Of a stretch of 64,000 nucleotides of DNA, positions 9,307 through 54,362 are shown one piece after another. The position numbers and the translations under genes were made by a program. The number at the start of each line of letters is the position of its first letter. Positions within the stretch are counted from its first letter, which is position 1. The stretch covers positions 96,001 through 160,000 of the forward strand of contig JBMFRC010000007.1 in NCBI GenBank assembly GCA_049968235.1, given 5' to 3'. Origin of the DNA: Candidatus Hydrogenedens sp. Lineage in GTDB: Bacteria; Hydrogenedentota; Hydrogenedentia; Hydrogenedentales; Hydrogenedentaceae. The notes below the pieces were generated by a model. That model ran no database searches. It saw nothing but the letters and a program-made list of their open reading frames with translations, and was not told the DNA's origin.

Positions 9307-11544
9307 TTACTGGCTAATATTCTCTTTCCAGTATTTCTTATTACGCCATTCCCTTATCCTTCCCCACCAATACATTTTTTTCTTTTCATCCCATGGCTTA
9401 TTTCCAAACCGTATTAAATTATACTCCTCTAAAAAAGTCTGAATTTCATTATACAATAAAGGAATTCTGCCCGGTAGTTCTCGCTCTATCTCCTCAACAG
9501 TTAAATTCTGAATCTTCCAGTTATTTCTCGCAAACAAAATTTCCAGTTTTTTAAATAATTGTTTTGCTTCATACTGGTCCTTAGTTAGAGAAATTTTTCT
9601 TGTTTTAACTTGATAAATACGAAATACCCTCCACAATATCTGCCATATCAATCCTAAAAGATAAAGAATACTAAGAAATATTAAAAGGATTACTATAGTC
9701 CCCACCGAAGGAACCGTTATCTTTCCACCCGGATTAATGTAATCATCCAGACTTTTTATAAAACCAAACTTTTCAAGTCCAAAACTAGGCAATTGAAATC
9801 CACGGTCAAATCCTACAACCTGTTGATACCAGAACATTCGTGTACGTAACATCCAACGCGTTAATTGCATTATAATCTGGTTCCTCATAAAATAATTAGA
9901 ATCAGGTAATGGGGATGGGTCAAAAGGGACCCAGCCATAGTTAAGAAATAAGACCTCCACCCATAGATGAGCCATCCCCTCTCGTACAAGATAAGAACGG
10001 CTTTGTGTGTCCCATTCTCCTCCTACATATCCTGAAACTACACGAGCAGGTATCCCCAAACTTCGTACAGCAAGAGCCATTGCACTGGCAAACAGTTCAC
10101 AATGTCCACGACGAATCTGCAAAAAAAAGGCATTCATCGGATGGTCTCCTGGCAATGGAGGTATATCCAACGTATATTGAAATTCCGGACCTGATAGCCA
10201 ATCTTCTATCGCAAGAACTTTATCATACACAGTTGCTTTCCCTTCCACAACCCTCTGGATTCGTGCTTGCACCTCCGGTGATAAATCATGTTGCGTTAAT
10301 AAATCATAATCCCGCTGAGACATAATTTCTTTATAATTATCCGGAGCCGTCCTCAATTTTGTTCCATCCCACTGAATAAGATCTGAAACCACACGATAAA
10401 CCAATCTCCGTGCATTATTAGAAGAAAACGATACTGTATAATCCTTTGTAGAATCCCAATTTAATGAAACCTGACTTCCTGATTCCCTCACACGAAATTC
10501 CCTCACACGGTCTAACACAGGAATACCATCTTCTGGAATATTGTCAAGATATATCTCCTGCACAACCTGAGTAGAAGGCATCTCCCTTTCTCTATCTAAG
10601 ATAACCGTATTTCTTCCTCCATTTTTTTGCACTTGAATGGCTCGTAATAATCCCATAAAAGAAATAGAACCACTTGTAGGTTCATACGAATCCTCCAGAG
10701 GCCATCTACGCCATTGTATTCCAAGATAAGTAGGTAAACTTGTAATGCGCCAATATAATTGATTCTGTGGTATCGGTGGATTTATACCTGCTGAAGGAAT
10801 GAAAACACTCATTACTGGTATATAAGAGATAGCAATAGTCTGCCCTCCCCTCAATGAGACACTGGTTGCAATCCCTGTTCTCGAAATGGCTCCTAAATCA
10901 CGACCAAAAATCCCTGCTTCCATACGAGGCATAAATAAAAATCCGGAAATGATAAAAGCCCAACCTATAACAATATTCAATAAAACAAAAACGACCAGAT
11001 AAAACCGATACGCAGGAAATATCCGCTTCAAATGAACCCATGGAACAGAAATACTCCTTCCCTGTTTATCTTTTCCATAAACCACTGTAACAACTGGCAA
11101 TAAAATAAAAACACAACATACAAACAAAATAAACGAAATACCTACAATAAATTCAGGAGCCTGAACCCCTGCTCCCAATAGTAGGAAAAAACTCATCAAA
11201 ATAATATACAGATACTCTTTCATTCCCTTAGGTCGCACTACCAATGTTAACTGTATCATGCCCGTCAGTAAAAGCACCGTATCCAATATCCCCAATACCA
11301 TTATTAACACCGGTAAAGCAATGCTCACTACCCACAATGGAATTTGAACCCAAAACGGATATCCGGGATACTTCTCTACAATTTTTTCAACAAAAAAACT
11401 TAATATCAACGGCACTATCGGAATAAATAGCACTACCATCCCATAGGACCGAACTGCTGTTAACGCCAGGTATGCAGACATTACTGCAATCAATACTGAT
11501 AGTTTTAATATCAAATTATGTCTATCTTCCTGCAGAAATAACAT
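9307..11544 (-). CDS. transglutaminase-like (TgpA-type) multi-pass membrane protein
   Basis: N-terminal polytopic region. Transglutaminase core 'RRGHCELFASAMALAVRSLGIPARVVSGY...GMAHLWVEV' shows Cys/His/Asp spacing. Confidence 0.75.
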   Translation of the reverse strand: MLFLQEDRHNLILKLSVLIAVMSAYLALTAVRSYGMVVLFIPIVPLILSFFVEKIVEKYPGYPFWVQIPLWVVSIALPVLIMVLGILDTVLLLTGMIQLTLVVRPKGMKEYLYIILMSFFLLLGAGVQAPEFIVGISFILFVCCVFILLPVVTVVYGKDKQGRSISVPWVHLKRIFPAYRFYLVVFVLLNIVIGWAFIISGFLFMPRMEAGIFGRDLGAISRTGIATSVSLRGGQTIAISYIPVMSVFIPSAGINPPIPQNQLYWRITSLPTYLGIQWRRWPLEDSYEPTSGSISFMGLLRAIQVQKNGGRNTVILDREREMPSTQVVQEIYLDNIPEDGIPVLDRVREFRVRESGSQVSLNWDSTKDYTVSFSSNNARRLVYRVVSDLIQWDGTKLRTAPDNYKEIMSQRDYDLLTQHDLSPEVQARIQRVVEGKATVYDKVLAIEDWLSGPEFQYTLDIPPLPGDHPMNAFFLQIRRGHCELFASAMALAVRSLGIPARVVSGYVGGEWDTQSRSYLVREGMAHLWVEVLFLNYGWVPFDPSPLPDSNYFMRNQIIMQLTRWMLRTRMFWYQQVVGFDRGFQLPSFGLEKFGFIKSLDDYINPGGKITVPSVGTIVILLIFLSILYLLGLIWQILWRVFRIYQVKTRKISLTKDQYEAKQLFKKLEILFARNNWKIQNLTVEEIERELPGRIPLLYNEIQTFLEEYNLIRFGNKPWDEKKKMYWWGRIREWRNKKYWKENISQ

Positions 11545-12619
11545 CAGGATTTACCACCCTCATACCAGTTGATAGTATTTGTCCCCATAATTCGGGATTA
11601 ATAGACAAAAGTAACAATCTTGAACTCCTACCTTCCTGGACAAAACGATTCCATAGTTTCTCATTTATTTCTTCATTGTCAACAGGTTGCAGTAAGGCAA
11701 GTCTCTTCAGTATCAAATTTAATTGTCCTACCCCATGTCCGGGAGGTATCTTATCCTCATCTGTCCATATACCCACTCGAAATTGTTTCATAAGAAGAGA
11801 GAACGCCAGAGAAGCGACAAAATCCATCATTTCTTCAAAAATCTCCTCATTATTTTCTCCATTAGGTCTTCTTAAATCCAGGTAAATCAAATATTGATTG
11901 GGTAAACTCAATGCCCATTCTCGAACTAACCACACACCCAAACGAGCACTTATTTTCCATGCGATATATCGTAAATCATCCCCCGGTTGGTATTCTCGAA
12001 TAGAGTAATAATCCCCCGATTCGGAAATAAGTGTCCGTGTCGGGACGCGACTCCCTCCAGCAAAATTCCCCAATGATTGCACCTTAAGAAATTGTGTTTT
12101 AGGCACTACCAACACATCCGCCTCTACTTGATACCATGCCTCTCTTTCTATAATTCCCAATGGAAATTCTGACCGTATCACTACCTCTCTTACTCGAACA
12201 CGACCCCGCTTCGGAAATTTCTGTTCTAATGAAAACTCAATATATTGATTTACAGGTAAAACAGGTATCTTTTTCCAGAATATTCTCGTCCTTATCCCAT
12301 GTGTATCCTCAATTACACCTTCTACAGAAACACCGAACAAAGGTGTACACTTTTTCTTATTCTCTAAGCGTATCCATATATTAGCCTCACTCCCTCTTGT
12401 AACCTGTTCCGGCACTAATATTTCAAGATGAGGTGGTTTAAAATTCCATTTCGAAAATACTTCCGCACATACCGCAACAGAGAAACAGATAGAGAAAGCC
12501 AGATATAAAATATTATTACCACTATTCCATGCAGAAAGTAATAAAAGAATGGTAAAAAATACTTCCCCCCACCAATAAGTTCGTATCGTCTTCGTTCGTG
12601 TAGGTAATCCTGAAATCAT
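11522..12619 (-). CDS. DUF58 domain protein (MoxR-associated, vWA-like)
   Basis: DUF58 signature 'YSIREYQPGDDLRYIAWKISARLG'. Lies between the MoxR ATPase and TgpA-like genes. Confidence 0.75.
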   Translation of the reverse strand: MISGLPTRTKTIRTYWWGEVFFTILLLLSAWNSGNNILYLAFSICFSVAVCAEVFSKWNFKPPHLEILVPEQVTRGSEANIWIRLENKKKCTPLFGVSVEGVIEDTHGIRTRIFWKKIPVLPVNQYIEFSLEQKFPKRGRVRVREVVIRSEFPLGIIEREAWYQVEADVLVVPKTQFLKVQSLGNFAGGSRVPTRTLISESGDYYSIREYQPGDDLRYIAWKISARLGVWLVREWALSLPNQYLIYLDLRRPNGENNEEIFEEMMDFVASLAFSLLMKQFRVGIWTDEDKIPPGHGVGQLNLILKRLALLQPVDNEEINEKLWNRFVQEGRSSRLLLLSINPELWGQILSTGMRVVNPDVISAGR

Positions 12620-12621
12620 AA

Positions 12622-13569
12622 TCAGCGTGGAATAGGAACTCTTTGGAGAATATCCTGAATAATTTTTTTCCGTTCTTCGGCTATATGTATGAGATTAAAA
12701 GACCTCGATTTTGAAATCAGCCGATGAGACAATACAGGTTCTGCCACCTCTCGAACATCCTGCGGAGTTGCAAAATCTCTCCCATTAATGAGTGCCCATG
12801 CCTGAGTTGCTACATACAAACTCTGGGTCCCTCTGGGGCTTATTCCCAACTCCACCTGCTCATGGTTCCGTGTCTGTTCAATAATCTGCAAAATATAATC
12901 CATTATTGACTCATCAACAAATATTTTCTTCGTCTGCTCCTGTAATTCTGTAACTTCTTCCGAGGTTATTACAGGCGGTAATTCACTTATCTCTTTCACC
13001 ACCTCTCTTTTTTTCATTATAACAAGTTCTTCCTCTGCCGGAGGATAACCTATTTCCAACCGAATTAAAAATCTATCTAACTGTGATTCCGGCAAACTAT
13101 ATGTGCCTTCATACTCAATAGGATTTTGTGTTGCTATCACAATGAAAGGTTGGGGTAAAGGATAGGTATTGCCGTCAACAGACACCTGATTTTCACTCAT
13201 GGCTTCTAACAAAGCACTTTGCGTTTTGGGTGGAGTTCGATTGATTTCATCCGCAAGCACTATATTGGCAAAAATAGGTCCTCTACGAAACTCAAAATCC
13301 GTTGTCCGTGGATTTAATATAGATACCCCCAAAATATCTGATGGCAACATATCGCTGGTAAATTGAATACGATGAAAAACACAATTCATGGAACGGGCTA
13401 ATACTTGTGCCAGTGTTGTTTTACCCATTCCCGGAACATCCTCGATAAGAATATGTCCCCGCGAAAGTATCCCCGTTACACAAAGTTTGATAGCATGTGT
13501 TTTACCTAAAAAAACACGTTCTACATTCTGAATTAACTTATCAATTTTATTCTTATAAATTTCAATCAT
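12622..13569 (-). CDS. MoxR-family AAA+ ATPase
   Basis: Walker A 'GMGKTT' and 'LLEAMSENQVSVDG' are MoxR hallmarks. Confidence 0.85.
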   Translation of the reverse strand: MIEIYKNKIDKLIQNVERVFLGKTHAIKLCVTGILSRGHILIEDVPGMGKTTLAQVLARSMNCVFHRIQFTSDMLPSDILGVSILNPRTTDFEFRRGPIFANIVLADEINRTPPKTQSALLEAMSENQVSVDGNTYPLPQPFIVIATQNPIEYEGTYSLPESQLDRFLIRLEIGYPPAEEELVIMKKREVVKEISELPPVITSEEVTELQEQTKKIFVDESIMDYILQIIEQTRNHEQVELGISPRGTQSLYVATQAWALINGRDFATPQDVREVAEPVLSHRLISKSRSFNLIHIAEERKKIIQDILQRVPIPR

Positions 13570-19439: not shown

Positions 19440-21020
19440 ATGGCTACATCTCTATCAACGCCACCCATAGTAGAAGTTAAAAATCCAAAAACGGGTGAAC
19501 TGCTATATTCCTTTCAGGAAATTACCGAATTTGATGTCGAAAAAATGTATGACACAGCAAAAAAAGCATTTGCAGTTATTCGTTCCATGTCGGTTCGAGA
19601 TCGACTTAATGAACTGGATAAAATTAAACAATACATCATCAAACATAGAGAAGAAATCGCCGAATTTATAACCCGTGAAACGGGCAAATGTATAACAGAT
19701 GCACTACTTCTCGAAGTTTTTCCTTCTGTAGACCAGATTGACTATTATCAGAAATACGCAGAGAGAATCCTTCGTGACCAAAAAGTCCCAACTCCTCTGT
19801 TACTCATAGGTAAGAAATCAAAAGTTGTTTATGACCCCTTAGGTATTATTCTTATAATTTCCCCATGGAATTATCCCTTTCATCTTTCATTTGTTCCCTT
19901 CGTTTGTGCTTTCACGGCAGGAAATGCGGTAATAATAAAACCTTCGCGTATCACTCCTCTAAAAGGACTTTATGAAAGAATTATTGAAGAATCAGGCTTT
20001 ATGAAAGGAGCCTTACAAATCGCCTACGCAAGTCGTAAAACCGCCAATCTGCTCATTGAAAAGAAACCCGATAAAATCCATTTCACAGGTAGTGTCGATG
20101 TCGGTAAAATCATTATGAAACAATCCGCAGAACACCTTATTCCCGTTGAATTAGAATTAGGCGGAAAAGACCCTATGATTGTATTTGAAGATGTAAACTT
20201 AGAAAGAACAGTAACCGGCGCCATCTGGGGAAGTTTTACCAACTGTGGACAAACTTGCACTTCTGTCGAACGCATATTTGTTCAGGAAAAAATATTTGAA
20301 CCCTTTGTGAACTTAATGGTCGAAAAAGTGAAAAAGTTAAGAACTCTTGCAAATACTCCAAATCCATCTGACGAAAAGGAATTGGATGTCGGATGTATGA
20401 CCGCTAACTTCCAGATTGAAGAAATTGAATCCCAACTCGAAGAAGCAAAACAAAAAGGAGCAAAAATCCTTTGTGGAGGAGAAAGACAAAAGGGAAGTCA
20501 CGCTTTCCCACCTACCATCATTACAAATGTAGGTAGAGATTATCGCATACAATACCATGAATCCTTTGGACCGGTTGTTACAATTACCCCATTCAAAACA
20601 GAAGAAGAAGTCATTCAAATGGCAAACGACTCTCCCTATGGTCTTTCCGCAAGTGTCTGGTCTGCAGATAAAAAACGCGCAGAGCGCGTTGCACGACAAA
20701 TTGTAACCGGAAATGTCTCTATCAACAATGTCCTTGCTACTCAAGCAAATTCTGCATTGCCTTTCGGCGGTATTAAAGAAAGTGGCTTCGGAAGGTACCG
20801 GGGTGCACAGGGATTACATGCTTTCTCTAACATCAAAAGTATTTTAATAGACCATCAATGGAACCGTATGGAAGCCTATTGGCATCCCTATTCCCGCAAA
20901 AAATTTGAACTGTTCTCTCAGGTCTTTGAAAGTGTATTCAAACGCGGAATACTACCTTTTCTTAAAACTGCATGGATTGGATTAAAATTAGAATTACTAG
21001 CACGAAAAGAGCGACTCTGA
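19440..21020 (+). CDS. aldehyde dehydrogenase family protein
   Basis: 'ELGGKDP', 'GQTCTSVERIFV' (catalytic Cys) and 'FGGIKESGFGR' ALDH motifs. Confidence 0.85.
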   Translation: MATSLSTPPIVEVKNPKTGELLYSFQEITEFDVEKMYDTAKKAFAVIRSMSVRDRLNELDKIKQYIIKHREEIAEFITRETGKCITDALLLEVFPSVDQIDYYQKYAERILRDQKVPTPLLLIGKKSKVVYDPLGIILIISPWNYPFHLSFVPFVCAFTAGNAVIIKPSRITPLKGLYERIIEESGFMKGALQIAYASRKTANLLIEKKPDKIHFTGSVDVGKIIMKQSAEHLIPVELELGGKDPMIVFEDVNLERTVTGAIWGSFTNCGQTCTSVERIFVQEKIFEPFVNLMVEKVKKLRTLANTPNPSDEKELDVGCMTANFQIEEIESQLEEAKQKGAKILCGGERQKGSHAFPPTIITNVGRDYRIQYHESFGPVVTITPFKTEEEVIQMANDSPYGLSASVWSADKKRAERVARQIVTGNVSINNVLATQANSALPFGGIKESGFGRYRGAQGLHAFSNIKSILIDHQWNRMEAYWHPYSRKKFELFSQVFESVFKRGILPFLKTAWIGLKLELLARKERL

Positions 21021-21038
21021 TAACTTTGAGATAATAAT

Positions 21039-21380
21039 ATGATTGAAATGACTAAAAAGGAAGAATTTGATAGTTTATTAAAAAATTCAAACGATATAAT
21101 TTTAATCATCTTCAAACATAGTAACCGTTGTCCTATCTCATGGAATGCCAAAAAAGAAATCGATACTTTTCTTGAAAAATATACAGAATACAATAACAAT
21201 ACCTATCTCATTAATGTCATTGATTCACGTCCTCTATCAAATTATATCGCTGAAACACTTCATGTAGAACATCAATCACCACAAATTATTATCCTGAAAA
21301 ATGGCGCCGTTGTGAAGCATATCTCTCATTTAACCATAACTGAAAAAAATCTAGAAAATATCCTCCAACCCTTAAAATAA
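21039..21380 (+). CDS. YtxJ/DUF2847-like monothiol thioredoxin-fold protein
   Basis: 'FKHSNRCPISW' matches the T/R-C-P-I-S motif of YtxJ. About 110 aa. Confidence 0.55.
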   Translation: MIEMTKKEEFDSLLKNSNDIILIIFKHSNRCPISWNAKKEIDTFLEKYTEYNNNTYLINVIDSRPLSNYIAETLHVEHQSPQIIILKNGAVVKHISHLTITEKNLENILQPLK

Positions 21381-21456
21381 TCAAAAAATTTTTTGATTAT
21401 TTATTTCCATTTACTTATTATATATAGTATTATATACACAATATAAATACTATATA

Positions 21457-23268
21457 ATGTATTTTTCATTTATTAAAAATTTATGTTTGGAGGAAAGAAA
21501 AGTGCGAATTGGAAATCGTTCAAGACTCTTCTGGACACAAGGAAAGTCTATCTTTAATAAAAAAAATTCCCCTGATTCTTTAGATGATTCCGTAAAAAAT
21601 GAAGAGAAAGAGGCTCTGTTATCAAAAACAGATGTAGATAACAAAGAAGAAATAATCGAAACAACAAACCACGATGTAGATGCAATTGAATTTGGAAAAA
21701 AAATTTCTCCGTTATTAACAAACCTTAGAAAAGTTATTGAAGAAGGAAAATTATTTCCGAACTCTCGTGAATGGGTTGATTCTGCATTACCTATATTAGG
21801 TAATTGTATCGAAGTCGCCTCTCAAAATAGACGAAAAGATTTAGAGCAATTATTTGTAGATATTGCGAGAATTATTTATTCCTCGGATAGGGTTGGAAAA
21901 TCCCATCTTTCTATCGAACCATCTCTTGAATTATATTCCCTTTTATGCTGTGTTGTTGCTGACTATATGCGAGGAAAAACCAACAAACTTACCTTTGAAC
22001 AATGGACAAAGTCCTATCAGAAAGTTGCAACCGATTTTGTTAATTCAGGCATCCGTCTAGTAACTGATAATGAGGAACCTATAACAATCTCTGTATCAGA
22101 AACAGAAAATACCTATTCTTCTTTAGAAGATATATCTGCTCCCACATCTGTGGACCATACCCCATCTCAAGACATCCTTCCCTCAGTGGAAGAAATTCCT
22201 CCTCCCTTACCTGAAGTCGAAAACATAGAAATATCTCATACAGATAATCTAACAGAAGAAAAAAAATACGTCAAAAATACCACAGAAAGAACAGACAATA
22301 ATGACCCAATATTACAGGATAGTTCATCTTCATACACAGTTAAAACCTTATATTCAGAAACAATAGAAGAAACTCCTCCAGATACAAATCCATCACCAGA
22401 AACAAATGAAATTATAATTGAAAATAATGTCTCAATTACTAATATGGAAGAAGAAAATCCACAGGAACCTGAACCCATTATATCTACAACAGAACAACCC
22501 CCTGATATTGACATTTCAACTTTCCTCCAGCAAATCAGCCAATTACCTCAAAACGAAGTGAAGGAAATTTTATTAGATACATTAAAAGCTATTGTCAATG
22601 GAACACCAGAAACCGCAAAAACAAAAGCCATCGAACTTGCCCGAGAAATGGCAAAATTAGAAGTTGAAAAAGTAAAAACTGAGTATCGAGGGACAGAATA
22701 TCAGATAGAAAGTTTAAGTTCAGAGATACACCAGGTTGAAGAACAACTTAATATTTGTCAGAATGAAATCAAAACAATAGAAGAAGAATTAAAAGAACAA
22801 CAATCTATCATTCAAAAAACAGAGAAAGAAAAAAACACTTTAGAAAGGCATATTGAAAATACTCAAAACAAAATTGCAGATATCGAAAAAAGAATTTTAG
22901 AACTTCAACAACAAAAAGAAACAGAACTTACAAATCTAAACCAATACAATGAGCAACTTTCCACTACCGAAAAAAATATTGAATATCTCAATCAGTCCAT
23001 ATCCTCTCTCAAAGAATCTATTAGCGATTTTGAAAATCAAGCTATGACTCTACTCAAAAGAATGGATTCGCTTGAACTAACCAAATCTCAGAAAGAAACA
23101 CAGTTGGAACAACTCCAAAAACAGATAAAAGAAAGAGAATCTACAGTCCGCCGATTAGAAGAAACTTTATGGTTTCTCCAATCAGCAGAAAACAAATCCA
23201 TAAAGAATAACCCATCAAATCATCTAAATACACAAAACACCATAGACCTCTTTGACGGGAAGGTATAA
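21457..23268 (+). CDS. coiled-coil protein with an acidic S/T/P/E-rich linker and a ~230-aa C-terminal coiled coil
   Basis: C-terminal heptad-rich segment 'EYQIESLSSEIHQVEEQLNICQNEIKTIEEELKEQQ...'. The middle is low-complexity. The stop overlaps the upstream region of the next gene. Confidence 0.6.
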   Translation: MYFSFIKNLCLEERKVRIGNRSRLFWTQGKSIFNKKNSPDSLDDSVKNEEKEALLSKTDVDNKEEIIETTNHDVDAIEFGKKISPLLTNLRKVIEEGKLFPNSREWVDSALPILGNCIEVASQNRRKDLEQLFVDIARIIYSSDRVGKSHLSIEPSLELYSLLCCVVADYMRGKTNKLTFEQWTKSYQKVATDFVNSGIRLVTDNEEPITISVSETENTYSSLEDISAPTSVDHTPSQDILPSVEEIPPPLPEVENIEISHTDNLTEEKKYVKNTTERTDNNDPILQDSSSSYTVKTLYSETIEETPPDTNPSPETNEIIIENNVSITNMEEENPQEPEPIISTTEQPPDIDISTFLQQISQLPQNEVKEILLDTLKAIVNGTPETAKTKAIELAREMAKLEVEKVKTEYRGTEYQIESLSSEIHQVEEQLNICQNEIKTIEEELKEQQSIIQKTEKEKNTLERHIENTQNKIADIEKRILELQQQKETELTNLNQYNEQLSTTEKNIEYLNQSISSLKESISDFENQAMTLLKRMDSLELTKSQKETQLEQLQKQIKERESTVRRLEETLWFLQSAENKSIKNNPSNHLNTQNTIDLFDGKV

Positions 23269-23272
23269 AGCC

Positions 23273-24625
23273 TTGTTTAACAAAAGAATACAAATCATCG
23301 CCATAGATTTTGGTTCAAATAATATACGCGTTCTCATCGGAGAACAAACAAAAGATGGCAACATCTCCATTATTGGACATGGAACAGCCCCTTCCTCAGG
23401 CGCTATATCCAGGGGGCTAATACAAGAAATGGACTCCGCACGTCATGCCCTTCACGAAGCATTATCTATGGCTCAACAAAAAACTTACTCCATTTCGCCC
23501 AAATTAATTGCTATCGGCATTAATACGCCCCGTGCTGAAACATACACAAAAGAAGGCACTCTGGACCTGAAAAATGAAGAAATTTCTTTTGAACACCTCC
23601 AAAAGGTATTTACCATTGCTCAACAACAAGTTCCCAAATCTGATAAAGACCTATTAAACTCTCTTTACTCCTTCGAATGGTATATTGACAATTTTTTAGT
23701 GAAATATCCCTTAGGAATGAAAGCAGAACAACTTAAAATTCGTGTCCACTTTACCATTATCCCCAAAGTCATCATTGAGAACTTAAAATCTTGCGCAGAC
23801 AGTGAATTACATCCTTCCTATTCCGTCATGGAATATTTCGTATATAATCCCATTGCAACTGCTATAGGTTCATTAACTCCCGAAGAAATGGAGTTAGGAA
23901 CTTTACTGATAGATATCGGAAAAACTACAACAAACCTCACCCTGTTTTCAGGACATAAACTCATATATGCATCTACTTTCGATTTCGGAACCATATTCAT
24001 ATCGAGAGATGTTTCTTCTGTATTTAAAATAGACTTCGAGGAAGCACACAAACTCATCTGCGATTACGGGATTTCCGAAGAACTGATTAACAAATATATA
24101 AAATCAAATCTACCTATTGGGAACATTCCCCTCTCCCCTTCTTTAATCTCAAATGAACTAAGGGGAAAACCCATCTCCCTTCAAACTGTTTTAGATGGTT
24201 TTAATAAAAATGTATCCAAAATCGAACTGGAAGGCGTTATTTTCGCCCGTGTTCAAGAAATGATTACAACCTTAAAAAAAGAAATTGAAAAAAAAGATTT
24301 GACACAATCTTTACTTCGGGGTATTGTTCTCGCAGGGGGTGGTGCTAATTTGCAAAATATGAATATCCTCATAGAAAAAATATTTAACACACCTGTGCGA
24401 ATAGCAAAACCTCAATATGCCATCCCTAATATACCTCAATCTATTAATAACCCGGAATTTGCCACTGTTGTAGGAATACTTCGCGATGGGTTTTCTTATT
24501 ACCACGCAAACAAAAAAAGACAGGTATTCCAGAATAAAAAAATCATTAGTCAACTATGGATTACTTTAATTTCACCCTTCAAAAAACAAAAAGGGGCTAA
24601 AACGACTTCTACAAAATCGAATTAG
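23273..24625 (+). CDS. FtsA-like actin-family ATPase (TTG start)
   Basis: 'IIAIDFGSNNIRVLIGE...IIGHGTAPSSGAISRGLI' matches the FtsA phosphate-1 region, and 'LAGGGANLQNMNILIEKIFNTPVRIAKP' the adenosine motif. A GGGAAGG RBS lies 9 nt before TTG 23273. The C-terminal amphipathic segment resembles the FtsA membrane-targeting helix. Confidence 0.65.
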   Translation: MFNKRIQIIAIDFGSNNIRVLIGEQTKDGNISIIGHGTAPSSGAISRGLIQEMDSARHALHEALSMAQQKTYSISPKLIAIGINTPRAETYTKEGTLDLKNEEISFEHLQKVFTIAQQQVPKSDKDLLNSLYSFEWYIDNFLVKYPLGMKAEQLKIRVHFTIIPKVIIENLKSCADSELHPSYSVMEYFVYNPIATAIGSLTPEEMELGTLLIDIGKTTTNLTLFSGHKLIYASTFDFGTIFISRDVSSVFKIDFEEAHKLICDYGISEELINKYIKSNLPIGNIPLSPSLISNELRGKPISLQTVLDGFNKNVSKIELEGVIFARVQEMITTLKKEIEKKDLTQSLLRGIVLAGGGANLQNMNILIEKIFNTPVRIAKPQYAIPNIPQSINNPEFATVVGILRDGFSYYHANKKRQVFQNKKIISQLWITLISPFKKQKGAKTTSTKSN

Positions 24626-24777
24626 CCCTACGGGGAACAGAAGAAAAAGGAATTTAAAAATAAGACTTACATTCTCTTTTTTAAGTTTCATCCATTGGAT
24701 AAAAAACTTAATAAAGATTTAAAATAACTACAATTTTTTATTTATCTTTTTCGCTGTAAATATCACAGGAGCAAAAA

Positions 24778-26220
24778 ATGACAAAAAAAACTATTGAACC
24801 TCGTTTACTCAAAGGTTTTCAAGACCACCTACCACCAAAAAGTAAAATTCGACAGGAGATAAAAGAAAAAATTATTTCCGTCTATGAAAAATATGGTTTT
24901 GCATTCATCGAAACACCCGCAATTGAATTGAAAGAAATCTTACTCGGTCCCGGAGGAGAAAATATCAATAAAGAAATTTTCTTCTTAGAAACACCCGAAG
25001 GGGAACAATCCTGTCTTCGATTTGACCATACAGTTCCCTTTGCCCGCGTCATTGCCCAATATCCTGAAAAAATAAAAATCCCTTTCCGTAGATACACCAT
25101 TGGGTCTGTATGGCGTGCCGATAAACCCGGTGTGGGGAGATACCGTGAATTCGTCCAGATGGATATTGATATTGCCGGAACACCTAACACCGCTGCTGAT
25201 GCAGAAATCATTGCCATCATGGTAGAAGTTATGAAAATCCTCGGATTTAATAATTTTCAATCACAAATCAACAATAGAAAATTAATTGACGCTCTATTAA
25301 TACAAAATGGTATTAAAGATATAGATACACAAAAACACATCCTGCGAGTTATTGATAAACTGCAAAAAATAGGTATCGATAATATTCGTAAAGAACTCGG
25401 AGAAGGTCGTATAGATGATTCCGGTGACCCTATCAAAGGCGTCGGATTACCGAATAGTATTATTGAAAAAATTATTAGTTTCATAACTATAACCGGCAAA
25501 ACACGCAAAGAAACTATTCAGAATATCAAACAATACTTATCAGACCAAACAGAATCTCAACAGGCAATCTTTACTATGGAAGAACTTGACCAATATCTAT
25601 CCGCTCTTGATATATCTGATACGGAAGCATCCTTTTCCACTTCACTTACCCGAGGACTGGACTACTATTCCGGACCTGTTTTTGAAATGATACTCAAAAA
25701 TGCTCCTCATATCGGCTCGGTTATGGGCGGTGGAAGGTATGACGGACTCATTTCACGATTTACAGACAAAACTATCCCCTGCACAGGAATGTCAATCGGT
25801 ATAGATAGACTTATAAATGCTATGGAAGAATTAAAACTAATAGATACACAAAAACCAATATATGATGTCATTATTACTCGAGTAGGAAAAGTTCCTATAA
25901 CGGAAGCACTTTCTATAGCAAAAGAATTGCGCAATCACGATTTAAAGGTCAGCGTCTATCTCGGGAAAAAAACAAAAGAAACTTTAGGCGAACAATTATC
26001 ACATGCAGACCACTACAACATACCCATTGCTGTTATATTGGGTGAAGATGAACTCAAAAAAGGGGAAATCTGTGTAAAAGATTTATACTATGGAGAAAAA
26101 GCTCGTAAGGATATAAAAGATAGAAATCAATACCGTGAAGCAGGAACAGTAAGTCAGGTTACTATCTCACGGGAAAAATTGGTAGAAACAATCTTTTCAT
26201 TTCTCAATAAAAATTATTGA
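24778..26220 (+). CDS. hisS: histidine--tRNA ligase (class II)
   Basis: Motif 2 'RYTIGSVWRADKPGVGRYREFVQMDIDIAG', motif 3 'GGGRYDGL...GMSIGIDRL', and a C-terminal anticodon-binding domain. Confidence 0.75.
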   Translation: MTKKTIEPRLLKGFQDHLPPKSKIRQEIKEKIISVYEKYGFAFIETPAIELKEILLGPGGENINKEIFFLETPEGEQSCLRFDHTVPFARVIAQYPEKIKIPFRRYTIGSVWRADKPGVGRYREFVQMDIDIAGTPNTAADAEIIAIMVEVMKILGFNNFQSQINNRKLIDALLIQNGIKDIDTQKHILRVIDKLQKIGIDNIRKELGEGRIDDSGDPIKGVGLPNSIIEKIISFITITGKTRKETIQNIKQYLSDQTESQQAIFTMEELDQYLSALDISDTEASFSTSLTRGLDYYSGPVFEMILKNAPHIGSVMGGGRYDGLISRFTDKTIPCTGMSIGIDRLINAMEELKLIDTQKPIYDVIITRVGKVPITEALSIAKELRNHDLKVSVYLGKKTKETLGEQLSHADHYNIPIAVILGEDELKKGEICVKDLYYGEKARKDIKDRNQYREAGTVSQVTISREKLVETIFSFLNKNY

Positions 26221-26687
26221 GGGTCACCAATTACAGGGTCATTATTTGATGGTAATTGACTCTCATTGTAGCGAATAATTCCTGTATGGTCTATACGGAA
26301 ATACCTATTCCCCGAATAACCTATTGTCTGAGGTGAAGCATAACATATAAACTGGACATTTGTTACTTGTGGCATAGAATATACATACCCCTGACGGATA
26401 CAGCCTTCACCCCATGATTCATCCAAATACCGCGTCGTCAGATTGGGAGATGAATTTACAAGGCTGTTAAAATCACCATAAGTATTATTTGCAGAATGAT
26501 ATGACACCTGTGCAGTACAAATAGCCCTTAAATTCCAGATAGTAGATGCCTCATTAGAATGAATTCGTGAACGTATTAATGTCGGAATAGTTATCGCAGA
26601 TATTATTGCGATTACTGCTACTACTACCATCATCTCTATAAGTGTAAACCCTTTTTGCCTTGTTCTCCACTGACGCCATTTATTCAT
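26214..26687 (-). CDS. type IV pilin / pseudopilin (prepilin N-terminal methylation domain)
   Basis: 'QKGFTLIEMMVVVAVIAIISAI'. An AAAGGA RBS is present. Confidence 0.75.
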   Translation of the reverse strand: MNKWRQWRTRQKGFTLIEMMVVVAVIAIISAITIPTLIRSRIHSNEASTIWNLRAICTAQVSYHSANNTYGDFNSLVNSSPNLTTRYLDESWGEGCIRQGYVYSMPQVTNVQFICYASPQTIGYSGNRYFRIDHTGIIRYNESQLPSNNDPVIGDPQ

Positions 26688-26812: not shown

Positions 26813-27244
26813 TTATTGTTCTCCGATGGGCGGGTCACCAGCGCCAGCCTGTCCACCTGTATTGAAGCGGATTACACCACTGGCATCTGTGTAGAAATAA
26901 CGATTACCACTTACACCAACTTCACTCGGGTCTGCATTGCAGGTAAAGTTATTTGGTCCCGGAGAAGCCAGAGTAAATGTATAACCTTGCTTAATACCAG
27001 CCCAGTTTCCTTCTAAGAATGGAGGGGTTGCCCCTGTTAGGTCTGCAAAATCACCCGTATAAGAACCATTTGCAGAGTTATAGGCAACTTCAGCACCAAC
27101 AATGGCTTTTAAGTTGCTGATTGCAGCAGATTCATTGGACTGCAATCTGGAACGAAGCAGGTTGGGAATCGCAATTGCTGCGATAATAGCGATGATTGCT
27201 ACCACAATCATCAATTCAATGAGTGTGAAACCTTTATTTTTCAT
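26813..27244 (-). CDS. type IV major pilin (PilA-like)
   Basis: '[30 protein letters not shown]'. Strong AAGGAG RBS, 143 aa. Confidence 0.8.
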   Translation of the reverse strand: MKNKGFTLIELMIVVAIIAIIAAIAIPNLLRSRLQSNESAAISNLKAIVGAEVAYNSANGSYTGDFADLTGATPPFLEGNWAGIKQGYTFTLASPGPNNFTCNADPSEVGVSGNRYFYTDASGVIRFNTGGQAGAGDPPIGEQ

Positions 27245-32631: not shown

Positions 32632-33321
32632 GTGATTAAGCGAAAAATCATTTCTATAGACTCCGAAAAATGTAACGGTTGTGGTTTGTGTGTTAACGCC
32701 TGTGCGGAAGGTGCTATAAAACTCATTAATGGCAAAGCACAATTAGTTTCCGATGTTTACTGCGATGGTTTAGGAGCATGTCTGCCTCATTGCCCCACAT
32801 TAGCACTCTCCATTGTAGAACGAGAAGCGGAACCTTTTGATGAAGAATTAGTTAAATTACAGCAAAGCATTAACGAACCTAAAACACCCATACATACATG
32901 CCCGAGCATACAATTCAAACCTGACCCTGCCCGAAAAGGAACCCTTTCCTACTGGCCTATCCAGATTCGACTCGTTCCCCCTATGGCTCACTACCTTCAA
33001 AACGCTAAACTCCTGGTAGTGGCGGATTGTGTTCCCATCGCATATCAAAATTTCCACAGCGATTTTTTGCAAGACCATGTTGTCCTTGTCGGCTGTCCCA
33101 AATTCGACCCGAAAGAACAATATGTTCAAAAATTCGCCGAAATTTTCACAAACAATGATATAAAAAACGTTACCATCCCCGTTATGGAAGTTCCATGCTG
33201 TCAGGCACTACCCAATATCGTACTTGCAGGCTTGCAATATTCAGGGAAGAATATCCCTGTTGAAAAAATTATAATCTCAATTCAAGGAGAAATATTGGGT
33301 AAACAATTCATTAATGGGTAG
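32632..33321 (+). CDS. 4Fe-4S dicluster ferredoxin-domain protein with a Cys-containing C-terminal domain (GTG start)
   Basis: 'CNGCGLCVNAC' plus 'CDGLGACLPHCP' motifs. AGGAG RBS. Confidence 0.65.
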   Translation: MIKRKIISIDSEKCNGCGLCVNACAEGAIKLINGKAQLVSDVYCDGLGACLPHCPTLALSIVEREAEPFDEELVKLQQSINEPKTPIHTCPSIQFKPDPARKGTLSYWPIQIRLVPPMAHYLQNAKLLVVADCVPIAYQNFHSDFLQDHVVLVGCPKFDPKEQYVQKFAEIFTNNDIKNVTIPVMEVPCCQALPNIVLAGLQYSGKNIPVEKIIISIQGEILGKQFING

Positions 33322-33327
33322 AAATTA

Positions 33328-33803
33328 ATGCAACAAAAATCATCTAAAATATCCTCAGGTTTTTCTCATTTAATACCTATCTGCGTATGCTTCGGAATTC
33401 TCATCGGAGTAGGTTCTTTCACTTTTATTACGCCCGCGGTTATTCATACCTTACCGATGACCCCAACGCCTGTGCTAATTGCCATGTAATGAAAGATTTT
33501 CTCGACTCCTGGCAAAAATCAAGCCATCACACTGTTGCAGTCTGTAATGACTGCCATACAGGACATACCTTGTTCTCCAAATACTATGTCAAAGGCTTAA
33601 ACGGCTATCACCATTCCACCGCATTCACTCTGGGCAATTTCCACGAACCTATTCGCATTAAAGAATTCAACCGAAAAGTAACAGAGGGAAACTGCCGATT
33701 TTGCCACCAAGACATTGTGCAAAATATTGATTCCAATATTGCTCATCGCAAACCATTACAATGCTTAAATTGTCATTTTAATGTAGGTCATTTTAATTAT
33801 TAA
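33328..33803 (+). pseudogene. nrfH: nrfH (NapC/NirT-family tetrahaem cytochrome c) interrupted by a single-base frameshift in a T4 run near 33423
   Basis: The TM anchor reads in frame 1 (MQQKSS...FGILIGVGSFTF). The haem domain reads in frame 0 from 33387 with four CXXCH motifs (CANCH, CNDCH, CRFCH, CLNCH). One extra T restores '..GSFTFYYARGYSYLTDDPNACANCH'. Confidence 0.75.
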
Positions 33804-33820
33804 AGGAAAAGAAAAAGAGC

Positions 33821-35239
33821 ATGACAAAAAAAATCAGAGGCAATGAAGGTATATCCTCAATCACCGCAGTTATCCTTGTGCTGGGAGTTGCTTTCGCCAC
33901 ATTTGCGGTAACTGCATTGCTTATTAATATCTTTGAGAAACAACAAGAGGCAAAAAATCCTTTTTTCCGTGTTGTTGACATTAATGACGACACGGAAGAC
34001 CCGGAAATCTGGGGAAAGAATTTTCCTATCCAGTATGACCTGTATAAAAGAACTGTAGATATGGTCCGCACAAAATACGGTGGCAGTGAAGCATTACCTC
34101 ATACGCCTACCGAAAATGACCCGCGTTTCGTTGTTAGCCAATCCAAAATTGAACTCGACCCCCGACTAAAACGAATGTGGGCGGGTTATGCCTTTGCCAT
34201 TGATTTTCGTGAAGAGCGAGGACATGCCTATATGCTCGATGACCAGACCTTCACAGGCAGACAACAGAAGCCACAATTCGGTGTGTGTGCACATTGCCAC
34301 GCATCAGTATATGTCCCCTATAAAAAATTGGGTAATGGCGACCTTATAAAAGGTTTTGAAAAGATGAATCCCATGCCCTATATGGAAGCGAGAAAACTCT
34401 TACAACATCCTGTTGCATGTATCGATTGTCATGACCCAAAAACCATGCAACTACGAGTAACCCGTCCCGGTTTCCTTGAAGGAATTAAAACCTACAAAGA
34501 AGCTCAGGGAATAAAGGACTACAATCCCAACACTATGGCAAGCAGACAAGAAATGCGGACCTATGTCTGTGCCCAATGCCATGTTGAATATTATTTCAAA
34601 GGCGATGAAAAACGACTTACCTACCCATGGCATAAAGGTCTGGAAGCAGATAATATCCTCGCCTACTACGATGAAATCAACTTCAAAGATTGGGTTCATG
34701 CAGAAACAAATGCACCTATGCTCAAAGCACAACATCCTGAATTTGAATTATGGAGTCAGGGCATTCATGCTCGTTCCGGTGTCGCCTGTGCAGATTGCCA
34801 CATGCCATATACTCGCGTAGGAGCTTTAAAAGTAAGTGACCATCATGTCCGTAGTCCATTATTGAATATTAACCGTGCCTGCCAGACCTGTCACCATTTC
34901 TCCGAAGAAGAACTCAAAGCACGCGTAGAACGTATTCAAGACAAAACAGCTGAAATGAAAGATATGGCAATGGATTCTCTTATAGCACTCATTGACGATA
35001 TTAAACGAATCCTGGATACAGGCATCTCCAATGAAAAAGTTGAAGAAGCCCGCTTATGCCAGCGTCGTGCGTCATTCCTGATAGACTTTGTTGAGGCGGA
35101 AAACTCCACAGGCTTCCACGCCGACCAGGAATCCGCCCGTATCCTATTCAAAGCCATGGACCATCTTCGCAAAGGACAGGTCGCACTCAAAGACGCCATT
35201 ACCCTCTACCAGGCATACGGCAACACAACAACAAACTAA
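33821..35239 (+). CDS. nrfA: cytochrome c nitrite reductase, pentahaem catalytic subunit
   Basis: Five CXXCH motifs (CAHCH, CIDCH, CAQCHVEYYF, CADCH, CQTCH), an N-terminal anchor/signal, and the conserved 'CAQCHVEYYF'. Confidence 0.85.
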   Translation: MTKKIRGNEGISSITAVILVLGVAFATFAVTALLINIFEKQQEAKNPFFRVVDINDDTEDPEIWGKNFPIQYDLYKRTVDMVRTKYGGSEALPHTPTENDPRFVVSQSKIELDPRLKRMWAGYAFAIDFREERGHAYMLDDQTFTGRQQKPQFGVCAHCHASVYVPYKKLGNGDLIKGFEKMNPMPYMEARKLLQHPVACIDCHDPKTMQLRVTRPGFLEGIKTYKEAQGIKDYNPNTMASRQEMRTYVCAQCHVEYYFKGDEKRLTYPWHKGLEADNILAYYDEINFKDWVHAETNAPMLKAQHPEFELWSQGIHARSGVACADCHMPYTRVGALKVSDHHVRSPLLNINRACQTCHHFSEEELKARVERIQDKTAEMKDMAMDSLIALIDDIKRILDTGISNEKVEEARLCQRRASFLIDFVEAENSTGFHADQESARILFKAMDHLRKGQVALKDAITLYQAYGNTTTN

Positions 35240-35298: not shown

Positions 35299-36156
35299 CT
35301 ATCTCTTTTTTTTGCAGTCGAAGTAGTGGTTGTTTTTGGGACCGAACCAGCCGACATTCCATGCACGATTAATAGCACCGTAGGCATTTTCTTCCGTTGC
35401 CCATTCCCAGCGTTCTGAGGTGATATGTCCATCACACCATAAGACATTTGCCCTGCCCCAATGTCGAAAATGTAATGTTGGCGACATATATACACCTTCC
35501 TGCCCTCGTGGATAATTTGCTGAAACCATCAATGGCGGTTCCACAAAACTATATTCGACAATATATCCATTCTGAGGCATTCCACTATCTGCAAACATAA
35601 TCGTCTCTGAGGGATTTTCAATCATCCGCTCATGCATTCCTGATTTACATGCTTTTACCGGGTCATGTTCGATACTCAACATGGAACCGACATACGCCAT
35701 GTTATATCCATAGCCGCCCGAACCCGATTCAAATGCGTTGGGAACCTCGCCTAAACTCCGATATTCAAAAAATTCCGAGCATTCTTTAATCCTTCCCTCC
35801 GGCACATATTCAAATAACGGTCCTTTGCGAAAATCGAACGGCGTATCTGGATTTGGGGTATCTCGTCTTCCATGCCATCTACATCTACCTCCGAAATGGT
35901 CAGGTTCCGAACCCGGCAACAAAAAATCATACATATCCGAGGCGGCTGGAACATAATACCCATTATTCTCTGACGCATACATTGTATTAGCAAGGTACAA
36001 TTGTCTCAAATTATTCACACATGAGACACTCCTTGCCTGTGCCCGTGCCCTTGATAATGCAGGTAGAAGTATAATTGCCAGAATGCTAATGATGGCAATA
36101 ACAACCAGCAGTTCAATTAGAGTAAATCCCATATTTCTCTGCAAATTAAAAAACAT
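35299..36156 (-). CDS. prepilin-type N-terminal domain protein with H-X9-DG motif (DUF1559 family), second gene of the riboswitch-controlled operon
   Basis: '[44 protein letters not shown]' and '[16 protein letters not shown]'. Overlaps the upstream gene by 11 nt. Confidence 0.8.
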
Positions 36157-54330: not shown

Positions 54331-54362
54331 ATTATTTAAATGTTCCAAAAAGTTTATTTCTA

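What the first reader, a model, noticed from the sequence alone, without database searches (positions are those of the whole stretch)
21457..24625. Orphan FtsA-like actin ATPase translationally coupled to a 600-aa coiled-coil protein
The FtsA-like gene starts at TTG 23273 with its RBS inside the end of the coiled-coil gene; the stop and start are 4 nt apart.

It is not in a dcw context (no ftsZ/ftsQ/mur). Its partner has a globular N-terminal domain, an acidic S/T/P/E linker and a long C-terminal coiled coil.

This pairing suggests a dedicated actin-like filament plus coiled-coil adaptor module rather than canonical divisome FtsA. Possible roles are a cytoskeletal/positioning system or a PilM-like assembly scaffold.
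Basis: partly seen in the sequence, partly recalled or inferred. Interest (0 to 1): 0.55.

Follow-up and report, generated by a model that had tools for sequence, protein, structure and literature searches.

The report
FtsA with a conserved coiled-coil partner
In an uncultured bacterial phylum (Hydrogenedentota), the cell-division protein FtsA sits next to an undescribed coiled-coil protein instead of its usual neighbour FtsZ, which points to a new, untested FtsA partner.

Summary
A coiled-coil gene ends at 23268. A 450-aa FtsA gene starts at TTG 23273, 4 nt later, with its ribosome-binding site inside the upstream gene. The coiled-coil gene more likely starts at GTG 21502 (588 aa) than at ATG 21457. 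No ftsZ or dcw gene lies in the 64 kb window.

The organism is Candidatus Hydrogenedens. The actin-like protein is FtsA by sequence, not PilM, MreB, MamK or ParM. It passes NCBIfam's FtsA equivalog cut-off, has the SHS2/1C domain, keeps the E. coli R300/E303 equivalents of the FtsZ-tail site, and has a basic-hydrophobic C-terminal tail.

The pairing is conserved across the phylum. In 39 of 40 Hydrogenedentota loci with enough upstream DNA, a homologue of the coiled-coil protein lies directly upstream of ftsA. All other neighbours differ, and none of about 60 loci has ftsZ nearby.

The partner has no Pfam, NCBIfam or PDB sequence match. Its parts are a basic N-terminal motif, an EE(R/K)xALL motif, a CheA-P1/HPt-like bundle without a phospho-histidine, an acidic disordered linker, a coiled coil of about 200 aa, and a C-terminal (D/E)x(L/M)LF tail.

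My reading is that it is a lineage-specific FtsA-binding scaffold, most likely in cell division. I could not establish whether these genomes encode FtsZ or a second FtsA.

The parts
21489..21493 (+). GGAGG ribosome-binding site of the coiled-coil gene
   Evidence: It lies 8 nt before GTG 21502.
21502..23268 (+). Coiled-coil partner gene (588 aa; the alternative in-frame ATG 21457 would give 603 aa)
   Evidence: ORF. Orthologue N-termini start here. NCBI holds the 588-aa form as a hypothetical protein. Homologues lie directly upstream of ftsA in 39 of 40 loci.
21502..21564 (+). Conserved basic N-terminal motif MRIGNRSRLFWTQGKSIFNKK (family consensus MRFGrR, then basic residues)
   Evidence: Family alignment of 38 proteins and the listing. 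Net charge is +6. Its function is inferred, not shown.
21592..21624 (+). Second short motif VKNEEKEALLS (family consensus PVasEERxALL)
   Evidence: Conserved in 71-84% of family members.
21652..22044 (+). HD1: five-helix bundle (aa 51-181), CheA-P1/HPt-like fold without a conserved phospho-histidine
22045..22512 (+). Acidic S/T/P/E-rich disordered linker (aa 182-337). It replaces the linker-HD2-linker region of other family members.
   Evidence: Composition. pLDDT is below 50. HD2 is absent in genus Hydrogenedens.
22513..23205 (+). Conserved pre-coil helix (ILLDTLKAIVNGTPETAKTKAIELA; G367 and K373 invariant) followed by a coiled coil of about 200 aa (aa 338-568)
   Evidence: AF2 gives a continuous helix 369-521 plus 528-568 with pLDDT up to 93. 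Only sub-threshold coiled-coil family hits were found (SMC, Rad50, crescentin rod).
23239..23253 (+). C-terminal tail motif TIDLF. In most of the family it is an acidic tail ending in (D/E)x(L/M)LF-COOH.
   Evidence: 39 of 51 distinct C-termini end in LF-COOH, and 7 more carry the motif within 8 residues of the end.
23257..23263 (+). GGGAAGG ribosome-binding site of ftsA, inside the end of the coiled-coil gene
   Evidence: It lies 9 nt before TTG 23273, and the upstream stop codon is at 23266-23268.
23273..24625 (+). ftsA (450 aa, TTG start)
   Evidence: 100% identical to P0001, 'cell division protein FtsA [Candidatus Hydrogenedens sp.]'. TIGR01174 scores 223.9 bits against a cut-off of 175.85. 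Pfam FtsA and SHS2_FTSA match. PDB FtsA matches.
23537..23752 (+). SHS2 / subdomain 1C insert of FtsA (aa 89-160)
   Evidence: PF02491 scores 29.8 bits against a cut-off of 25.4.
24248..24259 (+). R326..E329 in subdomain 2B, equivalent to E. coli FtsA R300/E303 in the FtsZ C-terminal-peptide site
   Evidence: Invariant in all 29 Hydrogenedentota FtsA sequences aligned with E. coli FtsA. PMC10769210 places the FtsZ-tail site at E. coli residues 234-245 and 294-304.
24536..24586 (+). Basic-hydrophobic C-terminal segment KKIISQLWITLISPFKK of FtsA (candidate membrane-targeting sequence)
   Evidence: Conserved in the genus. Other Hydrogenedentota FtsA end in ...RKYFF, like E. coli ...WLRKEF. The hydrophobic moment is only 0.44 against 0.78 for the E. 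coli sequence, so this is suggestive only.

Best explanation
The downstream gene is the FtsA orthologue of the phylum Hydrogenedentota. In this phylum ftsA has left the ftsQ-ftsA-ftsZ arrangement. It is instead tied to one upstream gene, which in this genus is translationally coupled to it.

That upstream gene encodes a cytoplasmic, probably dimeric, coiled-coil scaffold of an undescribed family. I propose that the two proteins are made together and bind each other, as follows.

1. FtsA sits on the membrane through its C-terminal tail.
2. The partner docks on FtsA through one or both of its conserved terminal peptides.
   - The acidic tail ending in (D/E)x(L/M)LF has the same layout as the FtsZ C-terminal peptide: a disordered linker, then a short acidic-hydrophobic peptide. 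It may use the conserved R/E pocket of subdomain 2B.
   - The basic N-terminal MRFGRR motif could use the 1A/1C cleft, as the FtsN and PilN peptides do.
3. The coiled coil makes the partner bivalent, so it can bridge or organise FtsA filaments.
4. The HPt-like bundle(s) on the long disordered linker recruit a further, unknown partner.

The most likely cellular role is cell division.

**Shown:** gene structure, FtsA identity, conservation of the pair, domain and motif architecture.

**Inferred:** physical binding, which peptide binds where, dimerisation, and the division role.
For: **FtsA identity**
- FtsA equivalog and domains.
- PDB FtsA matches.
- Invariant R/E of the 2B FtsZ-tail site.
- MTS-like tail.

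**Orthology across the phylum**
- The next-closest proteins in 1.84 billion representatives (31-35% identity, E 1e-71 to 1e-44) are FtsA of other Hydrogenedentota.
- They carry the same upstream partner.

**Linkage**
- 39 of 40 loci have the partner directly upstream on the same strand.
- It is the only conserved neighbour.
- The junction is 4 nt in this genus, with the RBS inside the upstream gene.

**Partner architecture**
-.
- C-terminal LF-COOH in 39 of 51 distinct tails.
- HPt-like folds.

**Weak support for a division role**
- In 6-7 loci an AmiC-type amidase gene precedes the pair.
Against: - No direct evidence of binding. A complex could not be modelled with the tools allowed.
- The tail resembles the FtsZ peptide in layout only. 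It lacks the D-I-P-x-F proline.
- In this genus the motif is followed by four more residues. Five of 51 tails lack it altogether.
- One large genome contig (L016, 4.08 Mb) has ftsA without the partner upstream.
- Whether these genomes have FtsZ or a second FtsA is unknown, so the division role rests on orthology alone.
Confidence: 0.55

Rival explanations
1. The FtsA-like protein is a paralogous actin-like filament working with its coiled-coil adaptor in a non-divisome task, such as positioning or shape. The real divisome FtsA-FtsZ pair is encoded elsewhere.
For: - It is never next to ftsZ or dcw genes in about 60 loci.
- It is only 24-30% identical to FtsA of other phyla.
- There is an insertion in subdomain 2B relative to E. 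coli.
- It has a dedicated conserved partner.
Against: - It passes the FtsA equivalog cut-off.
- It keeps the FtsZ-tail pocket residues and an MTS-like tail.
- 24-30% identity is within the range I recall for FtsA orthologues between phyla; I did not measure this here.
- No protein named as a second Hydrogenedentota FtsA appeared among the named hits. This is weak evidence, because both searches were limited to word-sharing candidates.
Confidence: 0.15
2. The adjacency reflects co-regulation only. The coiled-coil protein has its own function, for example chromosome organisation, a polar scaffold, or pseudo-phosphorelay signalling through its HPt-like domains. It does not bind FtsA.
For: - The partner has no recognisable FtsA- or FtsZ-binding domain.
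- HPt-like domains usually belong to signalling proteins.
- L016 shows that ftsA can exist without the partner gene upstream.
Against: - Adjacency is kept in 39 of 40 loci over FtsA divergence down to about 33% identity, while all other neighbours turn over.
- The genes are translationally coupled in this genus.
- Linkage this persistent usually marks physical or pathway partners. That is general knowledge, not something tested here.
Confidence: 0.2
3. A PilM-like assembly-platform protein of a type IV pilus or type II secretion-like machine, with the coiled-coil protein as its cytoplasmic partner.
For: - There is a weak PilM_2 Pfam hit over 74 residues.
- Two prepilin-type N_methyl genes lie 1.6 kb downstream on the other strand.
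Against: - pilM TIGR01175 scores 39.3 bits against a cut-off of 133, while FtsA scores 223.9.
- PDB PilM reaches only E 2e-4, against FtsA at 5e-31.
- There is no pilN, pilO, pilP or pilQ.
- The N_methyl genes are neighbours only within the genus.
- The partner has no TM segment, unlike PilN.
Confidence: 0.03
4. FtsZ-independent division. Hydrogenedentota lack FtsZ, and the coiled-coil protein takes over as the polymeric or scaffolding partner that FtsA tethers to the membrane.
For: - No ftsZ is found in any locus.
- The partner copies the FtsZ C-terminal layout of disordered linker plus terminal peptide.
- The FtsA 2B pocket is conserved.
Against: - Absence of ftsZ from 15-20 kb around ftsA says nothing about the rest of a 4 Mb genome.
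- FtsZ is nearly universal in peptidoglycan-walled bacteria. These genomes have peptidoglycan synthesis and rodA/mreBCD genes (PMC11406978).
- Conservation of the 2B pocket is just as well explained by a normal FtsZ elsewhere in the genome.
Confidence: 0.07

Closest known systems
FtsA with FtsZ (E. coli, T. maritima; PDB 4A2A) and FtsA with the FtsN cytoplasmic peptide (PDB 7Q6F family)
   Same: - The actin-like protein is an FtsA by HMM, domain make-up and PDB matches.
- In both cases the partner carries a long disordered linker ending in a short conserved peptide.
- The R/E pair of the 2B pocket that contacts the FtsZ tail in E. coli is invariant here.
   Different: - The partner is neither a tubulin-like GTPase nor a bitopic SPOR protein. 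It is a soluble coiled-coil protein with HPt-like bundles.
- The gene order is partner-ftsA, outside any dcw cluster, rather than ftsQ-ftsA-ftsZ.
- The tail motif is (D/E)x(L/M)LF, not D-I-P-x-F-L.
PilM-PilN (type IV pilus inner-membrane platform)
   Same: An FtsA-fold protein with a 1C-type domain is encoded next to a partner that carries a short conserved N-terminal peptide. In PilN this peptide is the INLLP motif, which binds the PilM cleft; that detail is from memory.
   Different: - PilM HMM scores are far below cut-off.
- The partner gene is upstream rather than downstream.
- The partner has no TM helix.
- There are no pilOPQ genes.
Coiled-coil division regulators (EzrA, ZapB, DivIVA/GpsB)
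   Same: Long alpha-helical, coiled-coil cytoplasmic proteins that organise early divisome polymers.
   Different: - There is no EzrA, DivIVA or ZapB Pfam hit.
- There is no N-terminal TM anchor as in EzrA.
- Those proteins have no HPt-like bundles or terminal LLF tail.
- None of them is known, from memory, to be encoded as a fixed pair with ftsA.
CheA P1 / HPt histidine-phosphotransfer domain
   Same: - The HD2 profile matches T. maritima CheA P1 by sequence (E 9e-5).
   Different: - The phospho-accepting histidine position is not conserved.
- No histidine is conserved in helix 2 of HD1.
- There is no kinase or receiver domain in the protein.
- These are most likely pseudo-HPt interaction modules.

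Membership tests
FtsA (NCBIfam TIGR01174; Pfam PF14450 + PF02491) | Whole-protein HMM score above the curated equivalog cut-off | tested here: met
   TIGR01174 scores 223.9 bits against 175.85. PF14450 scores 89.4 against 31.8.
FtsA (NCBIfam TIGR01174; Pfam PF14450 + PF02491) | SHS2 / subdomain 1C inserted in 1A, in place of the actin/MreB 1B | tested here: met
   PF02491 matches aa 89-160 at 29.8 bits against 25.4. The Hydrogenedentota FtsA clade (profile A5) aligns over its full length with E. coli and Vibrio FtsA structures; the profile that includes the window protein (A2) matches the same chains.
FtsA (NCBIfam TIGR01174; Pfam PF14450 + PF02491) | FtsZ C-terminal-peptide site in subdomain 2B (E. 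coli R300/E303 region) | tested here: met
   R326 and E329 align with E. coli R300 and E303 and are invariant in 29 Hydrogenedentota FtsA sequences. The site location comes from PMC10769210. This shows residue conservation only, not binding.
FtsA (NCBIfam TIGR01174; Pfam PF14450 + PF02491) | C-terminal amphipathic membrane-targeting helix | tested here: inconclusive
   There is a conserved basic-hydrophobic tail. Its hydrophobic moment is 0.44, against 0.78 for E. coli. Other members of the phylum end in ...RKYFF, like E. coli ...LRKEF.
FtsA (NCBIfam TIGR01174; Pfam PF14450 + PF02491) | Usual genomic context ftsQ-ftsA-ftsZ at the end of the dcw cluster | tested here: not met
   No dcw or ftsZ gene is in the window or in about 60 related loci. 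The outgroup control L074 does show ftsA-ftsZ. Context is typical of FtsA but does not define the protein family.
FtsA (NCBIfam TIGR01174; Pfam PF14450 + PF02491) | Single copy per genome, and acts at the division site | not testable with these tools
   Whole genomes could not be searched.
PilM (TIGR01175) | HMM score above cut-off, and adjacency to pilN/O/P/Q | tested here: not met
   39.3 bits against a cut-off of 133. No pilNOPQ in the window.
MreB / MamK / ParM actin-like filaments | HMM score above family cut-off | tested here: not met
   mreB TIGR00904 scores 40.6 against 365.75. MamK NF040964 scores 17.2 against 400. There was no ParM hit.
EzrA (for the coiled-coil partner) | N-terminal TM anchor plus EzrA spectrin-like repeats | tested here: not met
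   The maximum Kyte-Doolittle 19-mer score is 1.22, so no TM segment. No EzrA Pfam or NCBIfam hit.
SMC / Rad50 / crescentin (for the coiled-coil partner) | ATPase heads (SMC, Rad50), or a rod-domain HMM score above cut-off (crescentin) | tested here: not met
   Only coiled-coil-region hits far below cut-off: SMC 39.8 against 567, Rod_CreS 16.6 against 100. There is no NTPase domain.
HPt / CheA P1 domain (for HD1 and HD2) | Four- or five-helix bundle fold | tested here: met
HPt / CheA P1 domain (for HD1 and HD2) | Conserved solvent-exposed phospho-accepting histidine on helix 2 | tested here: not met
   The histidine of T. maritima CheA (LHTLKG) aligns with a non-conserved Ala-type column in HD2. 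HD1 helix 2 has no conserved histidine.

The most novel reading that the evidence does not exclude
Hydrogenedentota have rewired the FtsA hub. In this reading, a phylum-specific coiled-coil/pseudo-HPt scaffold carries an FtsZ-tail-like C-terminal peptide, acidic linker plus (D/E)xLLF-COOH. That peptide occupies the conserved 2B pocket of FtsA, so the scaffold either competes with FtsZ or, in the extreme case, replaces it as the membrane-tethered partner. This would be a new class of FtsA ligand and a new way of organising, or doing without, the Z-ring anchor.
Probability: 0.2. Interest if true: 0.75.

Novelty: new variant of a known kind. Interest (0 to 1): 0.55.

Why it matters
FtsA is the main membrane anchor and signalling hub of the bacterial divisome. 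Almost everything known about its partners comes from a few model species, where ftsA sits beside ftsZ.

Here a whole, uncultured phylum has broken that gene link. It has fixed a different one, to a protein family with no annotation. That family's layout of a disordered linker plus a conserved terminal peptide mirrors how FtsZ and FtsN engage FtsA.

If the two proteins bind, this gives a new FtsA ligand. It would be a natural experiment on how the FtsA 2B pocket or 1A/1C cleft can be re-used. It would also be an entry point to cell division in a lineage that cannot yet be grown.

The prediction is directly testable with recombinant proteins or complex modelling. If they do not bind, the result is still a well-defined new protein family with pseudo-HPt domains.

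Tried and rejected
- **Genome-contig scan with the genus FtsA profile.** The patterns were too specific.
- **Big-database search with the genus N-terminal-domain profile.** It returned only one partial orthologue. The distribution of the partner outside FtsA-anchored loci is therefore unknown.
- **Is FtsZ or a second FtsA present in these genomes?**
  - tblastn of E. coli FtsZ against all 76 held sequences (the window and all fetched loci) found it only in the outgroup L074.
  - Papers on Hydrogenedentota, and their supplements, do not mention ftsZ or ftsA.
  - The dcw-evolution paper was not held.
  - Look-ups of window-edge proteins, meant to extend the view along the 162 kb contig, found nothing on record.
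- **Full-length single-sequence AF2 model of the partner.** The N-terminal domain had low confidence and was not used for fold search. A second run on aa 1-200 with one homologue gave a usable domain model.
- **afdb50 fold search.** Not available.
- **HD1 against HD2 by hhalign.** Probability 0.8%, so an internal duplication is not shown by sequence.
- **Promoter and terminator scan of 20900-24900.** Counts equalled those of shuffled sequence, so it was uninformative.
- **PilM, MreB, MamK, ParM, EzrA, SMC/Rad50 and crescentin assignments.** All rejected on HMM scores.
- **Beta-clamp-binding motif (QLxLF) for the tail.** Considered from memory. Most tails, such as EELLF and DSMLF, do not fit its Q-L positions. 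It was not pursued.


Full report
**1. What is in the sequence**

The region holds two same-strand ORFs, 21457..23268 and 23252..24625.
- The upstream gene stops at TAA 23266-23268.
- TTG 23273 follows 4 nt later.
- GGGAAGG at 23257-23263, inside the upstream gene, is placed to serve as its ribosome-binding site.

The 450-aa product from TTG 23273 is identical to a public protein annotated 'cell division protein FtsA [Candidatus Hydrogenedens sp.]' (P0001). Its N-terminus aligns with nine orthologues.

For the upstream gene I prefer GTG 21502 over ATG 21457.
- It has a GGAGG 8 nt upstream.
- Orthologues begin there with a conserved M-R-[IF]-G motif.
- The 588-aa form is the one on record at NCBI as a hypothetical protein, on a 162 kb contig. 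The 603-aa form is not on record.

**2. Context**

The neighbours are degT-type aminotransferase, aldehyde dehydrogenase and brxC upstream, and hisS downstream. Then come two prepilin-like genes and trkHA on the other strand.

Pfam scans of all ORFs of 150 aa or more in the 64 kb found no ftsZ, ftsQ, ftsW or mur gene. tblastn with E. coli FtsZ found nothing. 'Not in a dcw context' is confirmed for the window.

**3. The actin-like protein is an FtsA**

- It scores 223.9 bits on NCBIfam's FtsA equivalog (cut-off 175.85). By contrast pilM scores 39, mreB 41 and MamK 17, all far below their cut-offs.
- Pfam finds FtsA and the SHS2/1C insert above threshold.
- A family profile hits only FtsA structures strongly (E 5e-31 to 1e-20). 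MreB reaches 4e-6 and PilM 2e-4.
- Aligned with E. coli FtsA, the equivalents of R300 and E303 are invariant in all 29 Hydrogenedentota sequences examined. These lie in the 294-304 segment of subdomain 2B, where the FtsZ C-terminal tail binds (PMC10769210; the specific residues are from my memory of Pichoff & Lutkenhaus 2007 and Szwedziak et al. 2012).
- The C-terminus is a conserved basic-hydrophobic segment. In other members of the phylum it ends ...RKYFF, much like E. coli's ...LRKEF membrane-targeting helix. Its amphipathicity in this genus is modest.

**4. Relatives**

An exhaustive HMMER search of 1.84 billion representatives shows three tiers:
- a tight genus-level group (59-83% identity);
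- a distinct tier at 31-35% identity (E 1e-71 to 1e-44);
- generic FtsA at 24-30%.

Searching with the middle tier retrieved hundreds of proteins that sources name FtsA of 'Candidatus Hydrogenedentes/Hydrogenedentota bacterium'. So this is the phylum's FtsA lineage, fast-evolving in the AT-rich genus Hydrogenedens.

**5. The pairing is conserved across the phylum**

Within the genus the pair is always present, but so is the whole neighbourhood, which proves little. The informative comparison is with distant members.

- In L017 and L018 all flanking genes differ, yet a large unannotated gene sits directly upstream of ftsA.
- Its product is collinear with the window protein. The N-terminal helical domain matches at E 1e-8 and 5e-10, followed by the coiled coil.
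- A metagenome scan with the Hydrogenedentota FtsA profile gave 57 more loci.
- Of 40 loci with at least 2.5 kb of upstream sequence, 39 have a member of this family directly upstream on the same strand. Every shorter locus with any upstream sequence shows its 3' part.
- All-against-all clustering of ORFs shows that no other real gene family recurs in more than 14 loci. The larger clusters are antisense shadow ORFs. FtsA and the partner are the only window genes whose families recur beside ftsA widely outside the genus, in 58 and 50 loci; the degT-type gene recurs in only 2.
- The one exception is L016, on a 4.08 Mb contig.
- No Hydrogenedentota locus has ftsZ within the 6-10 kb held on each side. 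The outgroup locus L074 (FtsA 29% identical) shows ftsZ immediately downstream, which validates the test.

**6. The partner protein**

It has no TM segment. It has no Pfam, NCBIfam or PDB sequence match beyond sub-threshold coiled-coil noise. A 38-sequence alignment and the listings give the family plan:

1. An N-terminal basic motif MRFGrR (here MRIGNRSRLFW).
2. About 30 residues later, PVasEERxALL (here VKNEEKEALL).
3. HD1, a five-helix bundle with invariant W91 and W168.
4. An acidic, proline-rich disordered linker.
5. HD2, a second bundle present in 30 of the 33 distinct full-length members outside the genus Hydrogenedens.
6. A conserved pre-coil helix (invariant G367 and K373) and about 200 residues of coiled coil. 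AF2 gives a continuous helix 369-568 with pLDDT up to 93.
7. An acidic tail ending exactly in (D/E)x(L/M)LF-COOH in 39 of 51 distinct C-termini. Here it is TIDLF plus four residues.

On the bundles:
- The HD2 profile matches the CheA P1 (HPt) domain by sequence (E 9e-5), but the phospho-histidine column is not conserved.
- HD1 and HD2 are not detectably related by sequence.
- I read both as pseudo-HPt interaction modules.

**7. Interpretation**

*Shown:*
- a bona fide FtsA-family protein;
- a novel, conserved, co-oriented upstream partner, translationally coupled in this genus;
- separation from ftsZ and dcw genes throughout the sampled phylum.

*Inferred:* the two proteins bind each other and act together, most probably in division, because the FtsA is orthologous to division FtsA and keeps its FtsZ-tail pocket.

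The partner's layout suggests how. The disordered linker plus short acidic-hydrophobic terminal peptide is the same design by which FtsZ engages FtsA's 2B pocket. The basic N-terminal peptide recalls how FtsN and PilN engage the 1A/1C cleft of FtsA and PilM (from memory of Nierhaus et al. 2022 and Karuppiah & Derrick 2011). A dimeric coiled coil would make the protein bivalent and able to bridge FtsA filaments. The HPt-like bundles would recruit something else.

The binding mode therefore remains a hypothesis.

**8. What remains open**

The key unknown is whether these genomes encode FtsZ and a second FtsA.
- If FtsZ is absent, the finding becomes much more interesting.
- The default expectation is one FtsA with FtsZ elsewhere, which makes this a lineage-specific divisome accessory factor.

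**9. Verdict**

The dedicated module is real. 'Not canonical FtsA' is unsupported. PilM-like is rejected.
- Novelty: a new variant of a known kind, namely an FtsA hub with an undescribed, phylum-wide partner family.
- Interest: moderate, 0.55. It is a clean, testable lead in an uncultured phylum, but no mechanism has been shown.

Noticed in passing
window 26214-26687 (-), 26813-27244 (-), 5826-6842 (+), 35299-36156 (-): Four genes with a prepilin-type N-terminal methylation motif, one of them with DUF1559. Two lie just beyond hisS, near the ftsA pair. They are neighbours of ftsA only within the genus.
   Followed up: partly
window 32632-35239 (+): A nitrite-ammonification-type locus. It has a 4Fe-4S ferredoxin-like gene (32632-33321), an NrfH-like gene inferred from the syntenic L004 annotation, and cytochrome c552 NrfA (33821-35239).
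   Followed up: no
window 9307-13569 (-): A cluster of TgpA-type transglutaminase (745 aa), a DUF58 protein and a MoxR-type AAA ATPase. It is syntenic in the genus relatives.
   Followed up: no
window 36146-38260 (-), 41486-43189 (+), 47574-49973 (+), 51527-53941 (-), 59895-61436 (+), 61545-63404 (+): Six large ORFs (513-804 aa) with no Pfam match at E of 1e-5 or better.
   Followed up: no
window about 54000-60000: GC skew turns from persistently negative to positive (+0.12 to +0.37), and the cumulative skew reaches its minimum near 56 kb. This could reflect a replication landmark or only a change in gene strand.
   Followed up: no
L046, L049, L050, L061, L065, L067 (just upstream of the partner gene); L018 1414-3186: In 6-7 distant Hydrogenedentota loci, an AmiC-type N-acetylmuramoyl-L-alanine amidase (Amidase_3, about 600 aa) precedes the partner-ftsA pair on the same strand. 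This is a weak hint of a septal peptidoglycan link.
   Followed up: partly
L016 9929-11290 (4.08 Mb contig ctg34068l, ERZ21831019): This is the only locus where ftsA lacks the partner gene upstream. A divergent HTH regulator precedes it, and two multihaem cytochrome genes follow. Whether the partner is encoded elsewhere in that genome is unknown.
   Followed up: partly
L017 aa 335-449 of the 822-aa partner, and equivalents in 30 loci: A second helical domain (HD2) of the partner family matches CheA P1/HPt by sequence (E 9e-5) but lacks the phospho-histidine. It is missing from all genus Hydrogenedens members and from L044, L051 and L071.
   Followed up: yes
window 847-2157 (-), 262-825 (-): A hybrid-cluster (prismane) protein gene lies next to an Rrf2-family regulator.
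   Followed up: no
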